Assembly: GCA_951406725.2 (NCBI GenBank)
Contig: OX597817.1
Location: forward strand, 170,562,001-170,626,000
Source: Octopus vulgaris
Taxonomy: Eukaryota
DNA: 64,000 nt
Direction: 5' to 3'
The translations under genes were made by a program, and so were the position numbers. Below are positions 13,212 to 62,358 of the stretch, piece after piece (positions within the stretch are counted from its first letter, which is position 1; the number at the start of each line of letters is the position of its first letter). The notes beneath the pieces were generated by a model. The model made no database searches, had not been told where the DNA came from, and saw only the letters and a program-made list of their open reading frames with translations.

Positions 13212-13477
13212 AGTACACACACACACTAAGCTTCCACACAGTTTCTGTCCACCAAATTCAAAAGGCATCGGTCAGCCCAGGACTTAAAAAAGACACCTAC
13301 CCAAGGTACCACAGAGTGGGACTGAAACAGATCACATGGTTGAAAAGTGGGCTTCTTAACCACATAGCAATGCCTGTGCTTATAAGAAAAAATCTATATT
13401 TAAAAGTATATATTGTGTATATATATATATATATATATTTGATGATGATGATATATATGTATATATATATATATATT

Positions 13478-13711
13478 AACAACTTATTAGCAAGGGCAAA
13501 AGAAAAAAATTCTAATACCAAATATGCCGGAAATAGACAACCCGTCAATAACCATATAGACGATTTGTCTATTTTCAGCATATTTGGTATTAGAATTTTT
13601 TTTTTTTTTCTCTTTGCTTATAAGTTGTTTAGAAATTTAACCTTTAAGGGTATTTTTTAATATGCTGGCCATTGATAGAATTTTTTTCGAAAAATTTTAT
13701 CCTATATTAGA
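13478..13711 (+). mobile_element. Fold-back Penelope-like insertion in (TA)n
   Basis: Arms 13478-13540 / 13564-13629; 3' segment TGCTGGCCATTGATA...TTTTATCCT shared with 41573-41921 and 21905-21950. Confidence 0.6.
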
Positions 13712-30959: not shown

Positions 30960-33900
30960 TAGCACCACCACAAGCTACCACCACAGCCACCACAACAACA
31001 ATAGTCACCACCACAACCACCAGCACTGCCACCACCAACACCACCACAGCCACAACCACAACTACAGCCACAACCACAACCACCATTGTGTCACCACCAC
31101 AGCTACCTCCACAACCACCACCACCACCACTACCAACACCACAGTCACAACCACAACCACCATTGCTTCGACCACCACTTCCACCACCACCACCACCACC
31201 ACCACCACCACAACCACAACCACAACCACCATTGCTTCCACCACCACTACCACCACCACCACCACCACCACCACAACCACAACCACCATTGCACCACCAC
31301 CACCACCACCACCACCACAACCACAACCACCATTGCTTCCACCACCACCACTTCCACCACCACCACCACCACCACCACCACCACCACCACCACCACCACC
31401 ACCACCACCACCATTTTCCACCACCACCACTTCCACCACCACCACCACCACCACCACCACCACAACCACAACCACAACCACCATTGCTTCCACCACCACC
31501 ACCACCACCACCACAACCACAACCACAACCACCATTGCTTCCACCACCACTTCCACCACCACTACCACCACCACCACCACCACCACAACCACAACCACCA
31601 TTGCTGCCACCACCACTTCCACCACCACTACCACCACCACCACCACCACCACCACAACCACAACCACAACCACCATTGCTTCCACCACCACTTCCACCAC
31701 CACTACCACCACCACCACAACCACAACCACAACCACAACCACAACCACCATTGCTGCCACCACCACTTCCACCACCACCACCACCACCACCACAACCACA
31801 ACCACAACCACCATTGCTGCCACCACCACTTCCACCACCACTACCACCACCACCACCACCACCACCACCACAACCACAACCACCATTGCTGCCACCACCA
31901 CTTCCACCACCACTACCTCCACCACCACCACCACCACCACAACCACAACCACCATTGCTGCCACCACCACTACCACCACCACCACCACCACCACCACCAC
32001 AACCACAACCACAACCACCATTGCTTCCACCACCACTTCCACCACCACTACCACCACCACCACCACCACCACAACCACAACCACCATTGCTGCCACCACC
32101 ACTACCTCCACCACCACCACCACCACCACCACAACCACAACCACAACCACCATTGCTTCCACCACCACTTCCACCACCACTACCACCACCACCACCACCA
32201 CCACCACCACAACCACAACCACCATTGCTGCCACCACCACTACCTCCACCACCACCACCACCACCACAACCACAACCACCATTGCTGCCACCACCACTAC
32301 CTCCACCACCACCACCACCACCACCACAACCACAACCACAACCACCATTGCTTCCACCACCACTTCCACCACCACTACCACCACCACCACCACCACCACA
32401 ACCACAACCACCATTGCTGCCACCACCACTACCTCCACCACCACCACCACCACCACCACAACCACAACCACAACCACCATTGCTTCCACCACCACTTCCA
32501 CCACCACTACCACCACCACCACCACCACCACAACCACAACCACCATTGCTTCCACCACCACCACCACCACTACCTCCACCACCACCACCACCACCACCAC
32601 CACAACCACCACCACCATTGCTTCCACCACCACTTCCACCACCACCACCACCCACCACCACCACAACCACAACCACAACCACCATTGCTTCCACCACCAC
32701 TACCTCCACCACCACCACCACCACCACAACCACAACCACCATTGCTGCCACCACCACTTCCACCACCACCACCACCACCACCACAACCACAACCACCATT
32801 GCTTCCACCACCACCACTTCCACCACCACCACCACCACCACCACCACCACCACCACCACCCACCACCACCACCACCACCACCATTCCACCACCACCACCA
32901 CTTCCACCACCACCACCACCACCACCACCACCACCACCACCACCACCACCACCACCACCACCACAACCACAACCACAACCACCATTGCTTCCACCACCAC
33001 TTCCACCACCACCACCACCACCACAACCACCACCATTGCTTCCACCACCACTTCCACCACCACTACCACCACCACCACCACCACCACAACCACAACCACC
33101 ATTGCTGCCACCACCACTTCCACCACCACAACCACCACCACCACACCACCACCACCACAACCACAACCACAACCACCATTGCTTCCACCACCACTTCCAC
33201 CACCACTACCACCACCACCACAACCACAACCACAACCACAACCACAACCACCATTGCTGCCACCACCACTTCCACCACCACCACCACCACCACCACAACC
33301 ACAACCACAACCACCATTGCTGCCACCACCACTTCCACCACCACTACCACCACCACCACCACCACCACAACCACAACCACCATTGCTGCCACCACCACTT
33401 CCACCACCACTACCTCCACCACCACCACCACCACCACAACCACAACCACCATTGCTGCCACCACCACTACCTCCACCACCACCACCACCACCACCACAAC
33501 CACAACCACAACCACCATTGCTTCCACCACCACTTCCACCACCACTACCACCACCACCACCACCACCACAACCACAACCACCATTGCTGCCACCACCACT
33601 ACCTCCACCACCACCACCACCACCACCACAACCACAACCACAACCACCATTGCTTCCACCACCACTTCCACCACCACTACCACCACCACCACCACCACCA
33701 CAACCACAACCACCATTGCTGCCACCACCACCACCACCACCACCTCCACCACCACCACCACCACCACAACCACAACCACCATTGCTGCCACCACCACTAC
33801 CTCCACCACCACCACCACCACCACCACAACCACAACCACAACCACCATTGCTTCCACCACCACTTCCACCACCACCACCACCACCACCACCCACCACCAC

Positions 33901-34832
33901 AACCACAACCACCATTGCTGCCACCACCACTACCTCCACCACCACCACCACCACCACCACAACCACAACCACAACCACCATTGCTTCCACCACCACTTCC
34001 ACCACCACTACCACCACCACCACCACCACCACCACCACCACAACCACAACCACCATTGCTTCCACCACCACCACCACCACTACCTACCACCACCACCACC
34101 ACCACAACCACAACCACCATTGCTTCCACCACCACTACCTCCACCACCACCACCACCACCACAACCACAACCACCATTGCTGCCACCACCACTTCCACCA
34201 CCACTACCACCACCACCACCACCACCACCACAACCACAACCACAACCACCATTGCTGCCACCACCACTTCCACCACCACCACCACCACCACCACCACCAC
34301 CACCACCACCACCACCACCCACCACCACCACCACCACCACCACCACAACCACAACCACCATTGCTGCCACCACCACTTCCACCACCACTACCACCACCAC
34401 CACCACCACCACCACAACCACAACCACCATTGCTGCCACCACCACTTCCACCACCACTACCTCCACCACCACCACCACCACCACCACCACCACCACCACC
34501 ACCACCACCACCACCACCACCACCACACAACCACAACCACCATTGCTGCCACCACCACTTCCACCACCACTACCACCACCACCACCACCACCACAACCAC
34601 AACCACCATTGCTGCCACCACCACTTCCACCACCACCACCACCACCACCACAACCACCATTGCTGCCACCACCACTTCCACCACCACCACCACCACAGCC
34701 ATAACCACAACCACCATTGCTGCCACCACCACTTCCAGCACAGCTACCTCCACCACCACCACCACCACAGCCATAACCACAACCACCATTGCTGCCACCA
34801 CCACTTCCAGCACAGCTACCACCACCACCACT
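30960..34832. repeat. ~3.9-kb complex (CCA)n-derived satellite
   Basis: Recurring module (CCA)n-(CAACCA)1-4-CCATTGCT(G/T)CC-ACCACCACT(T/A)CC. Confidence 0.95.
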
Positions 34833-40822: not shown

Positions 40823-41572
40823 TTAGTTTCCACTTTCCATGCTCGAAGGTAATATTTCACCATGACCAGACACGTCTCAATGAAGAATGACATTTGCATG
40901 ATGGTGACATTCACTTAAAACTATTACATGATGCCACAGCAAAGAGACAGTGTCACACACACACACACACATGTGCACGCGCGCACACACACAACACACA
41001 CATACATATCATCATCATAATCATGGGCTTCTTTCAGTTTCCATCTACCAAGTCCACCTGCAAGGCTTTGGTCGGCCTGGGACTCTAGGAGAAGACATTT
41101 ACCTCCGGTACCATGAAGTGAGGTTGAACCCAAAACCAGGTGGTTCGGACGCAAACTTCTTACCACACAGCCATGCCTGAGAATTTACCTCATGCAATTC
41201 AATCTGAAACTATTTCCCATGAAAACAAGTTGGTGTGTCAGAATTGATGACAGATGAATGCCAATGACTATTGATTCTAACAGCAGTTGGTATGTCCTCT
41301 CCTTTTCAAGCCAGTTCAATGAGGCTACGAATTTAAGTTTTGAGGAAGAATTATTTTCATATTTTATTGTTTTAAATCAATAGGCATAGGAGTGGCTGTG
41401 TGGTAAGTAGCTTGCTTATGAACCACATGGTTCTGGGTTCAGTCCCACTGCGTGGCACTTTCGGCAAGTGCCTTCTACTATAGCCCCAGGCCAACCAAAG
41501 CCTTGTGAGGGGATTTGGTAGATGGAAACTGAAAGAAGCCCGTCGTATGTATATATATATATATATATATAT

Positions 41573-41919
41573 ACAATTCATAAATGAGGGCAAAGGAAAA
41601 AATTTCTAATGCCAAATATGCCGAAAAATTGGACATATTGTCCATTAACCATATAATTTTTTCCGATATGGTAATAATAGAATTCTTTAGAAATGTCTGT
41701 CGACCTTTTTTCGAGTAGCGTGTGTATTGTGAAAAAATTATATGGTTAATGGACAATATGTCCAATTTTTCGGCATATTTGGCATTAGAAATTTTTTCCT
41801 TTGCCCTTATTTATGAATTGTTTATAAATTTAACCGTTTAAGATATTTTTTAATATGCTGGCCATTGATAAAATATTTTTCGAAAAAATATTTTTTTCAA
41901 AAGAAATTTTATCCTCATT

Positions 41920-41921: not shown

Positions 41922-41970
<49 letters not shown>

Positions 41971-42147
41971 TTGAGTAGTTGAATGAATTATCTTGTTATG
42001 GATAATTCGGTTAACCGATACCTGGGTAGCAAATTCACATCAGAGAAGACACGTTTGAAGTTACGTGCTTTCATGTGGAAATTTGTATGTTTTTTTTTAA
42101 ATATAAATATATGAAAGAATGGAGTTGAACAACGAATTAACAAAATT

Positions 42148-42242
42148 CCTTTATTTTCGACATATGTTTCGAAGGCTGCATATTCCTAATTGCGAAGGAA
42201 TAAGGAGTACATTATGCCGCTTTCTCATCAGGAAAAGCAAGG
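42148..42242 (-). ncRNA. Type I hammerhead ribozyme (left palindrome arm)
   Basis: CCTTGCTTTTC-CTGATGA-GAAAGCGGCATA...TATGCAGCCTTC-GAAA-CATATG-TC-GAAAATAAAGG; C17 at 42159. Confidence 0.8.
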
Positions 42243-42280
42243 AACTTATGTCAACATCAATCTTGATGTTGACATAAGTT

Positions 42281-42375
42281 CCTTGCTTTTCCTGATGAGA
42301 AAGCAGCATAATATACTCCTTATTCCTTCGCAATTAGGAATATGTAGCCTTCGAAACATATGTCGAAAATAAAGG
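42281..42375 (+). ncRNA. Type I hammerhead ribozyme (right palindrome arm)
   Basis: CTGATGA 42292-98, G10.1-C11.1 pair 42299/42352, GAAA 42353-56, palindromic CATATG stem III, GUC triplet 42362-64, stem I TTTTC/GAAAA plus distal CCTT/AAGG. Confidence 0.8.
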
Positions 42376-42420
42376 AATTTTGTTAATTCGTCATTCAACT
42401 CCATTCATTCATTTATTTAC

Positions 42421-42488
<68 letters not shown>

Positions 42489-42919
42489 GTGTGTGTTTGT
42501 GTGTCTGTGTTTGTCCTCCCAACATCGCTTGACAACCGATGCTGGTGTGTTACGTCCCTATAACTTAGCGGTTCGGCAAAAGACACCAATAGAATAAGTA
42601 CTAGGCTTACAATGAATAAGTCCTGGGGTCAATTTGCTTGACTAAAGGCGGTGCTCCAGCATGGCTTCAGTCAAATGACTGAAACAAGTAAAAGAGTAAA
42701 AGAGTAAAAGATAGAGAGAGTCAGCAGCACTTTCTTTTGAAAATTTGTCTATAGTTTAAGCTGTTCTTTTCAGATCAAGATCCTTCTCTAACCCCTAACC
42801 AAATAGGAATGACTTGTTAGCCAACCTCAAACAATACAAAGATTAAGTACTTTACTCAAGTGTTACTTGGGAATGGTGATACTAAGGTTTGAACAAGTCC
42901 AATAAAGAAGTCTCTACAT

Positions 42920-56342: not shown

Positions 56343-56460
56343 CATTTACAGCACCTAGGTTTTCCAAGCAGTCGCCCATCTAAGTACTAACTAGGTTCAA
56401 CGTTGCTTAACTTCGGTGATCGGATGAGAACCGATGTTTTCAAAGTGATATGGCCGTAGA
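56343..56460 (-). pseudogene. 5S rRNA pseudogene (near full length)
   Basis: Minus strand TCTACGGCCATATCACTTTGAAAACATCGGTTCTCATCCGATCACCGAAGTTAAGCAACG...GTTAGTACTTAGATGGGCGACTGCTTGG...GTGCTGTA matches invertebrate 5S rRNA; solitary with several substitutions. Confidence 0.9.
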
Positions 56461-56580
56461 AGACACTTGCTGTAGCTGCCATGCAGTGGGACTGAACCTG
56501 AAACAACATGGTTTGGAAGTGAACTTCTTTAACTACACAGCTACACCTGCACAAAGCCTCACCTATACCATACTCATGAA

Positions 56581-60639: not shown

Positions 60640-60645
<6 letters not shown>
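60338..60645. repeat. AT-rich fold-back, ~140-bp arms, ~25-bp spacer, in (TA)n
   Basis: 60338-60481 is the reverse complement of 60507-60645. Confidence 0.9.
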
Positions 60646-60671
<26 letters not shown>

Positions 60672-60675
<4 letters not shown>

Positions 60676-62358
60676 TGCAAAGTCCCCTCTCGTCCCAAGG
60701 TGGTGGAACAATGTAGTTGACAGGGCCATAAAGGAAAAGAAACAGGGATGGAAGGACTGGAAGAACAGTGGTAGCAGGGAATTGTATCAGATTGCCAGAA
60801 GGGAAGCCAGGAGACAGATTTACTTAGCCAGAGAGGAAGGAGATAAGAAAAAATTTGCCAATGTTCTGTGTAGTGAGGACCAAAGACTTGAAGTGATTTG
60901 TGTTGCAAAACAGTGTGTGAGAGAGAATCGTGATGTCTTAGGAGAGAAATGTGTTTGCATGGATGATGGCTCACTTGCATTTAATGAGGCTGCAAGGAGA
61001 GAGACTTAGAGATGCCACTATGAAAGGTTGCTAAATGAAGAGAATGAGTGGGAGAATGAGAGTCTGCCATATGTCAATCCAACAGAGGGACCAGCTATCC
61101 AAATTGACAGTACCTTGGTAGATAAAGCAATTAAGAGTATGAAGACAGGGAAAGTCCCTGGCCCATCAGGAATCACGGCAGAGATGCTTAAAATATCTGG
61201 CTGTGTTGGCCATAGCCTAGTCACCTGTATAGTTAACCAGGTGATACATGAAGAAGTCATACCCAATGACTGGTGTAGTAGCACCACAGTCAACTGCTAC
61301 AAAGGTAAAGGTGATGGATTAGATATGAATAATTACAGAGGTATCAAGTTGCTGGATCAGGTAATGAAAGTCACAGAGAGGGTCATAGCCCAACTAATTA
61401 TGGATAGAGTCAGTCTAGATGAGATGCAGTTTGGGTTTGTACCAGGGAAAAGCACCACTGATGCTATATTTCTAGTAAGACAGCTGCATGAGAAATATTT
61501 AGCCAAAGATAAACCTCTGTACCTGGCTTTCGTTGACACGGAGAAAGCCTTTGACAGGAGCCACTGATCCCTTATCTGGTGGTCAATGCAGAAAGTAGGG
61601 ATAGATGAGTGGTTAGTGAGAGCTGTACAAGCCATGTACAAGGATGCTGTCAGTAAGGTGAAGGTTGGCAACCCTTCAGGTAGATGGCCCTGCTCAATCT
61701 GTAGAAAAGGTGTATGTAGAAACTCCATAAGATGTACTCAGTGTAAGCTATGGACACATAAGAAGTGCAGCAATATCAAAAGAAGGCTAACTGGGAAGAT
61801 ATTTTATGTATGTGGCAAATGCTCAGGTGCTATAAACACAGAAAATGTGCAGAGAACAGCTTCTGTCACATTCCAGGGAGAAAAACTAGAAGTAGTTGAT
61901 AGCTTCTGTTACCTAGGGGACCAAGTCAGTAGCAGGGGTGGATGCTCTGAGAGTGTAGCTGCTAGAATAAGAATAGCCTGGGCAAAGTTCAGAGAGCTCC
62001 TGCCTCTGTTGGTGACAAAGGGCCTCTTGCTCAGAGTAAAAGGTAGCCTGTATGGTGCATGTGTGTGAACAGCTATGCTACATTGCAGTGAAACATGGGC
62101 CATGACTGCTGAGGACACGTGTAAGCTTGCAAGGAATGAAGCTAGTATGCTCCGCTGGATGTGTAATATCAGTGTGCATATACAACAGAATGTAAGTGCC
62201 CTGAGAGAAAAGTTGGACATAAGAAGCATCAGATGTAGTGTGCAAGAGAGAAAACTGTACTGGTATGTTCATGTGTTGCATATGGATGAGGACAGCTGTG
62301 TGAAAAAGTGTCACACGCTAGCAGCAGAGGGAACCTGTGGAAGAAGTTGACCCAGGAA
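60672..62358 (+). mobile_element. Decayed RTE/RTE-X-type LINE: reverse transcriptase with internal deletion and PHD-like zinc finger
   Basis: WWNN motif, KTGKVPGPSGITAEMLK, YKGKGD..NNYRGIKLL, QFGFVPGKSTTDAIF, AFVDTEKAFD, LEVVDSFCYLGD, ARIRIAWAKF, SETWAM; stops and frameshifts. Confidence 0.92.

What the first reader, a model, noticed from the sequence alone, without database searches (positions are those of the whole stretch)
42105..42418. Perfect-centre palindrome with a hammerhead on each strand
Seen: ~157-bp arms, 2-nt centre; each arm holds CUGAUGA, a long stem II, CGAAA, palindromic CAUAUG and GUC, facing outward. Established: Penelope-like elements carry minimal HHRs with palindromic stem III that can cleave as dimers, and often insert with inverted pLTR copies. 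Inference: any read-through transcript contains the antisense arm first, so the ribozyme would be locked in a long dsRNA hairpin (ADAR or Dicer substrate) whichever strand is transcribed; a single arm should be active.
Basis: partly seen in the sequence, partly recalled or inferred. Interest (0 to 1): 0.75.

Follow-up and report, generated by a model that had tools for sequence, protein, structure and literature searches.

The report
Head-to-head Penelope retroelement stub
This mirror-image DNA with a self-cutting RNA motif on each strand is real, but it is one of hundreds of such stumps in this genome, most likely left when a Penelope-type jumping gene copied the start of its RNA onto both cut ends of a TA repeat, and nothing here shows that it has a job of its own.

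Summary
The palindrome is real: 157-nt arms, 2-nt centre, 8 mismatches, a type I hammerhead motif on each strand. It is half of the picture. The left arm runs on for about 135 nt into a 'tail', and both ends sit in (TA)n. The unit (41967-42420) is two 5'-truncated ends of a Penelope-like element joined head to head. Full-length parents with RT and GIY-YIG motifs are in the genome and fit the Hydra clade. It is common: 4,637 exact ribozyme-core matches and 318 loci with two intact cores head to head. In 41 of 45 junctions one arm ends at a short stop and the other at the tail end, as expected from two reverse-transcription starts. The stems covary. The hairpin lock is predicted, but a single arm is predicted to misfold, and no transcription, editing or cleavage was shown. 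The layout is published (PMC3846280, PMC4209133, PMC8557442), and this scan noted it before in this and other genomes. New details: a long tail, and (TA)n targeting without the linker zinc finger.

The parts
41967..42260 (-). Long copy: 5'-truncated PLE end, from -101 to about +192 relative to the cleavage C (left arm plus tail)
   Evidence: continuous match to young family copies (96.8% over 344 nt to L002)
41967..42103 (-). Tail, about 135 nt, present at this end only; in full-length copies it leads on to the ORF start
42154..42236 (-). Type I minimal hammerhead motif (CUGAUGA 42231-42225; cleavage C 42159)
42260..42262 (.). Head-to-head junction: 1-nt overlap (A42260) between the two copies; T42261/C42262 unpaired
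42260..42420 (+). Short copy: 5'-truncated PLE end, from -104 to about +56, stopping at the TA-rich short stop
42287..42369 (+). Type I minimal hammerhead motif (CUGAUGA 42292-42298; GAAA-CAUAUG-UC 42353-42364)
42015..42024 (-). Candidate splice donor CAG|GTATCGG inside the tail (its candidate acceptor TATACAG lies beyond this copy's end); unproven
   Evidence: no spliced joint seen
41922..41969 (.). (TA)n target tract, left
42421..42514 (.). (TA)n then (TG)n tract, right; no target-site duplication can be read in these repeats

Best explanation
The palindrome is the overlap of two 5'-truncated ends of a Hydra-clade Penelope-like retroelement joined head to head in a (TA)n tract, likely made in one insertion event by reverse transcription primed from both cut DNA ends. 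Shown: identity of both pieces, parent elements, TA flanks, one short and one long end, hundreds of sister loci. Inferred steps: (1) the element's GIY-YIG nuclease nicks both strands of (TA)n; (2) one end primes inside the RNA at the tail end (about +192), the other about 135 nt upstream (about +56); (3) both cDNAs copy back through the uncleaved ribozyme and stop near -101 and -104; (4) repair joins them through 1 nt of overlap. Because the two pieces overlap in template position, two RNA molecules, or one RNA read twice, were needed. The ribozyme is a passenger: it is under selection in the parent element, likely works there as a dimer or with protein help, and would be locked in a long hairpin in any transcript that reads through this stub.
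For: Parent: pLTR-ORF-pLTR copies with 833-904 aa open frames, motifs FD..FYPSI, MGS, YRDD and IYQC..YIG; Hydra-clade marks RW, DKT, no CCHH, C-terminal CxxC and CxH (against PMC8557442 section 11). Abundance: 4,637 core matches; among the first 100 on C1, 14 outward pairs within 2.5 kb, 0 inward, 0 tandem (counted from the list); 318 loci with two exact cores 10-160 nt apart. One short plus one long end in 41 of 45 scored junctions (46 found, 1 not anchored). Ends in (TA)n: 38 of 46 classified ends (7 more unclear) against 8% background. Junction positions differ from locus to locus, so the palindrome is not copied as a unit. Arms of a pair are sisters and share private variants (L018, L125, L111). 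In vitro precedent: a lizard PLE nicks and extends both strands and starts at two internal RNA sites that define the tail, on uncleaved RNA (PMC11167929, parts 1-2 read). No excess of truncation at the cleavage site: 19 of 25 hits against 18 of 20 at a matched control position.
Against: The steps are read from genomic copies; no activity was measured for this family. The tail (about 135-155 nt) is far longer than the published 30-40 bp. Four of 45 junctions do not fit the short/long rule (L018, L028, L076, L131). Near-symmetric junctions are somewhat enriched (9 of 32 within 30 nt, 4.5 expected, p=0.017; not significant within 5, 10 or 15 nt), which a self-priming model also predicts. The arms of this locus differ more than most (5.3% against a median 2.0% in 37 pairs). 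Pfam finds no RT domain and only one weak GIY-YIG hit among 13 aligned proteins (E=0.012); no structure was obtained.
Confidence: 0.88

Rival explanations
1. Same origin, different route: one cDNA or antisense template folds back on itself and is copied (self-priming, as proposed in PMC3846280), so the mirror arm is a copy of the first arm.
For: Arms in a pair are usually sisters; mild enrichment of near-symmetric junctions; the family has a small hairpin-prone sequence at -100 to -105.
Against: In 13 of 32 C1 junctions the long piece starts at +26 or later and in one more the short piece does, so one arm holds sequence the other lacks (values read into). Here the short arm reaches 3 nt further 5' than the long arm and the long arm 135 nt further 3', so neither can be a full copy of the other.
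Confidence: 0.07
2. A kept, working hairpin RNA: the locus is transcribed and serves as an ADAR or Dicer substrate, or as a switch that silences its own ribozyme.
For: The hairpin is predicted to be very stable. Octopus has very high hyper-editing, and Penelope is heavily edited in a lizard (PMC5625713, passages).
Against: The arms have decayed independently, including CpG changes on opposite strands, and two changes weaken stem II of the right arm. The locus is one of at least 318. It lacks the -140 to -158 zone where many copies begin, the likely RNA start (13 of 64 ends). Young copies show no A>G excess on the sense strand (2.9 per 1000 against 5.3 for T>C).
Confidence: 0.03
3. A non-autonomous palindromic element or retrozyme that moves as one unit.
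For: Nine other loci have a centre near -100; very high copy number.
Against: Those nine were picked by this query and their junctions differ base by base. No tandem arrays among the first 100 core matches. The arm is contiguous with the ORF in full-length copies.
Confidence: 0.015
4. Fold-back assembly artefact.
For: No public contig spans the whole stretch; no long reads were available.
Against: Eight arm mismatches with reciprocal CpG decay, different flanks, an asymmetric tail, and the same short/long rule as other loci. Inverted joints at many positions also appear in contigs of three other runs.
Confidence: 0.005

Closest known systems
Insertions of endonuclease-bearing Penelope-like elements with inverted pLTR and optional tail (PMC3846280; PMC8557442 Fig. 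2)
   Same: Head-to-head inverted 5'-truncated copy, tail at one end only, palindromic junctions, N-rich inserts in the ORF
   Different: Here the insertion is only two pLTR stubs; tail about 135-155 nt, not 30-40 bp; no readable target-site duplication
Hydra clade of PLEs, including Hydra-1_Obim (PMC8557442 section 11 and supplement)
   Same: C-terminal GIY-YIG, RW and DKT motifs, no CCHH, C-terminal CxxC and CxH, hammerhead, (TA)n insertion; motif order agrees with Hydra-1_Obim when read by eye
   Different: A different family: other ribozyme sequence, unit about 3.5 kb, N-rich insert, and no CxCX5C linker in 3 of 3 aligned ORFs; its motifs were not found in the held supplement text (long runs there are cut)
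Minimal type I PLE hammerheads (PMC4209133; dimers reviewed in PMC6765202)
   Same: CUGANGA and GAAA core, tiny palindromic stem III, long stem II; opposite-strand pairs 100-700 bp apart were already reported in Schistosoma
   Different: Stem II region is 54 nt in three segments; G follows A9 directly; activity untested
PAc (Poseidon, Anolis carolinensis) in vitro system (PMC11167929)
   Same: Two internal RT start sites that define the tail, both strands nicked and extended, AT-rich targets, uncleaved RNA as template
   Different: Other clade; there the ORF starts inside the ribozyme, here the ATG lies about 260 nt downstream, after a candidate intron
Non-LTR retrozymes (PMC7229834; bioRxiv 10.64898/2026.07.22.740005)
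   Same: Short non-coding repeat with a type I hammerhead, PLE-related
   Different: No tandem array; inverted rather than direct; contiguous with a coding parent

Membership tests
EN+ Penelope-like element | Single ORF with RT followed by C-terminal GIY-YIG in the parent | tested here: met
   Motifs in 833-904 aa frames; 293 homologs. By motif only: Pfam weak, Atlas lead GIY-YIG in 11% of one cluster, no fold obtained
EN+ Penelope-like element | pLTR formed by partial tandem, with hammerhead | tested here: met
   L031, L053, L054, L055, L069
EN+ Penelope-like element | Inverted 5'-truncated copy at the 5' end | tested here: met
EN+ Penelope-like element | Tail at one end only | tested here: met
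   41 of 45 junctions; longer than published
EN+ Penelope-like element | Target-site duplication | tested here: inconclusive
   Flanks are (TA)n
Hydra clade | RW(K) and DKT motifs | tested here: met
   RIRWL and SDKT; third residue is L, not K
Hydra clade | No CCHH in the nuclease; CxxC and CxH near the C-terminus | tested here: met
Hydra clade | CxCX5C linker | tested here: not met
   Absent in 3 of 3 aligned family ORFs, present in 9 of 10 homologs (the tenth is truncated); so 'Hydra-type, linker lost', not a typical member
Hydra clade | (TA)n insertion | tested here: met
   38 of 46 ends against 8%
Hydra clade | RT phylogeny with reference Hydra elements | not tested
   Reference sequences were seen only as paper text
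Type I hammerhead | Core CUGANGA, GAAA, NUH | tested here: met
   CUGANGA in 84 and the 3' core in 89 of 99 copies; N7 varies U/A/C; triplet GUC or GUA
Type I hammerhead | Stems I-III kept by covariation | tested here: met
   87% of cells paired against 35-47% for slid controls; 9 of 26 pairs with two-sided change; stem III invariant (17 related sequences, structure drawn from them)
Type I hammerhead | Self-cleavage | not testable with these tools
   No raw RNA reads
Non-LTR retrozyme | Tandem direct repeats, each with a hammerhead | tested here: not met
   0 same-strand neighbours within 2.5 kb among the first 100 matches; one arm pair only in the window

The most novel reading that the evidence does not exclude
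These stubs are a genome-wide record of the Penelope insertion machine: a dimeric protein holds two copies of one RNA, paired through the palindromic ACAUAUGU of the uncleaved ribozyme, primes them at two fixed sites about 135 nt apart from the two ends of a cut (TA)n, and finds that target without the zinc-finger linker thought to guide it. The ribozyme's main job would then be to pair templates, not to cut.
Probability: 0.12. Interest if true: 0.65.

Novelty: new member of a known kind. Interest (0 to 1): 0.22.

Why it matters
The locus itself is ordinary debris. The family is useful because thousands of young copies give counts on how Penelope-like elements insert, which is still open: one short and one long end per insertion, no pile-up of ends at the ribozyme cut, and (TA)n targeting that persists without the linker motif proposed to cause it. 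The 318 or more perfect-hairpin loci are also a ready list for asking whether such stubs feed the heavy RNA editing known in cephalopods.

Tried and rejected
Rfam: no hammerhead hit; only generic hairpin matches below gathering score. Truncation at the cleavage site as a sign of cutting in vivo: 6 of 8 hits among 744 young copies looked enriched against 0 of 1 at +9, but a wider test gave 19 of 25 against 18 of 20 at a matched control, 9 of those from one microhomology spot; rejected as unproven, a weak excess is not excluded. Arms from two different subfamilies: generally not; for this locus one diagnostic site differs, inconclusive. Editing of template RNA: no A>G excess. Expression: no RNA holder listed on record; contigs of runs guessed to be RNA cover the pLTR but show no ends, strand or level, and no spliced joint. 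Host gene: no PLE ORF in the window and no host exon recognised among 12 of 43 long frames translated; small exons were not sought. PDB sequence searches: nothing. Homolog search with the C-terminal half: nothing. Structure prediction did not finish. One search used wrong coordinates and was discarded. The Lunse et al. dimer paper was not held; it is cited through the review PMC6765202 (passages). Searches for cephalopod PLE hammerheads returned only PMC8557442 and PMC5625713.

Full report
Observation. The sequence at 42105-42418 is a palindrome about T42261/C42262, perfect for 42 bp and with 8 mismatches over about 157 nt. Each strand carries CUGAUGA, a 54-nt stem II region, GAAA-CAUAUG-UC and a stem I, facing outward. 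Rfam has no matching model. Positions below are counted from the cleavage C (0 = 42364 on the plus strand, 42159 on the minus strand).

The real unit. The arm is a high-copy repeat in this 2.8-Gb genome. Compared with other copies, the left arm continues on the minus strand to 41967, about 135 nt beyond the palindrome, and ends in (TA)n. The right arm stops at a TA-rich site near +56 and runs into (TA)n(TG)n. The two pieces begin at -101 and -104 and share one base. So the insertion is a long and a short piece joined at their 5' ends.

The parent. Walking upstream in longer copies gives about 570 nt of untranslated sequence, then the end of an ORF. Full-length copies have the order pLTR-ORF-pLTR, with open frames of 833-904 aa. 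These carry RT motifs and a C-terminal IYQC..YIG nuclease motif and have 293 homologs, named ones from an argonaut and a coral. Against the description of the Hydra clade (PMC8557442, section 11 read) the family has RW, DKT, no CCHH, C-terminal CxxC and CxH, a hammerhead and (TA)n ends. It lacks the CxCX5C linker in 3 of 3 aligned ORFs, where 9 of 10 homologs have it. The paper's supplement lists another octopus Hydra family with a different ribozyme; this family's motifs were not found there (text partly cut). The domain calls rest on motifs: Pfam gave one weak GIY-YIG hit in 13 proteins and no structure was obtained.

How common. The 17-nt ribozyme 3' core has 4,637 exact matches, the control none. 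Among the first 100 on contig C1 I counted 14 outward pairs within 2.5 kb and no inward or tandem pairs. Two exact CUGAUGA cores lie head to head, 10-160 nt apart, at 318 loci. Junction positions differ from locus to locus.

Rules of the insertions. Of 46 abutting inverted junctions, 45 could be scored; 41 have one end at +47 to +89 and the other at +187 to +223 on the reference scale (this set mixes position-ordered and query-picked loci). Ends lie in (TA)n in 38 of 46 classified cases, 7 more unclear, against 8% background. Of 64 piece starts in 32 C1 junctions, 13 fall at -140 to -158, a likely RNA start (values read by eye; inference). In 13 of the 32 the long piece starts at +26 or later, four of them at +44 to +68 beside the short stop, as one RNA primed twice would give; in the others, as here, the pieces overlap. 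Arms of a pair are mostly sisters and sometimes share private variants. This locus has among the most diverged arms (5.3%, median 2.0% of 37 pairs), with CpG decay on opposite strands, which argues for a real and aged insertion.

The ribozyme. In 99 copies the core is kept, the free N7 position varies and the triplet is GUC or GUA. On 17 subfamily representatives (18 clusters plus the window arm, two unrelated clusters dropped) 87% of cells pair, against 35-47% for slid controls, and 9 of 26 pairs change on both sides. The sequences are related and the structure was drawn from them, so this supports but does not prove selection. A single arm is predicted to prefer another fold by 5.9-6.7 kcal/mol; stem III is unstable in a monomer and gives an 8-bp duplex (-7.0 kcal/mol) in a dimer; the whole insertion folds into one hairpin from either strand. 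Copies truncated exactly at the cut site are no more frequent than at a matched control (19 of 25 against 18 of 20 hits), so the templates were mostly uncut.

What is known. Head-to-head inverted pLTRs with a tail at one end are described for PLEs (PMC3846280, passages; PMC8557442, passages). Opposite-strand minimal hammerheads 100-700 bp apart, and inactive monomers, are in PMC4209133 (parts 1-2 of 4 read). Two internal RT starts, extension of both strands and a protein-assisted, dispensable ribozyme are in PMC11167929 (parts 1-2 of 4). Retrozymes are tandem (PMC7229834, passages; bioRxiv 10.64898/2026.07.22.740005, part 1 of 5; its supplements are closed and could list related elements). Earlier notes of this scan reach the same reading on other DNA; I had it before opening them and count them as no support.

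Verdict. A real, ordinary by-product of a Hydra-type Penelope-like element. The hairpin lock is a predicted consequence of the geometry with no evidence of use. What may be new is small: a family not found in my searches, its long tail and its loss of the linker motif.

Noticed in passing
L066:3062-5773, L063:3066-5738, L060:1741-4239: The parent ORF lacks the CxCX5C linker (N-rich stretch in its place), yet the family still ends in (TA)n; PMC8557442 links that motif to TA targeting.
   Followed up: partly
L053 4590-4660; window 42015-42024 (-): Candidate 5' UTR intron, CAG|GTATCG ... TATACAG, about 65 nt, just upstream of the ATG; acceptor kept in 19 of 21 read-through copies. The long end lies inside it, so the template would be unspliced. 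No spliced joint seen.
   Followed up: partly
L160 (G000:C16:51921856-51921900): Tiny palindrome whose two arms both begin at the ribozyme cut site; L156 is similar. Single cases that would fit cleaved templates.
   Followed up: partly
window 41562-41832; part copy 13471-13558: Element with 102-nt terminal inverted repeats (96%) between TA tracts, 140 nt left of the finding; MITE-like, with relatives in three fetched loci.
   Followed up: partly
L103:3265-3370 (-): A second, unrelated hammerhead family with the same CAUAUG loop, also with an inverted piece upstream.
   Followed up: no
L046:2-772 (-): RT fragment of another Hydra-type PLE family.
   Followed up: no
L124 413-2196: A 1.8-kb near-symmetric palindrome of the same family with the same short/long ends.
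   Followed up: partly
L018: Inverted pair with no differences over 248 nt and both arms running into the tail: a recent duplication, conversion or assembly effect.
   Followed up: no
window 56343-56461 (-): 5S rRNA gene.
   Followed up: no
window 60641-62068 (+): Broken LINE-type reverse transcriptase fragment (family judged by eye).
   Followed up: no
window 31006-34831: 3.8-kb (CAC)n array; also tandem arrays of 63, 148, 184 and 492 nt.
   Followed up: no
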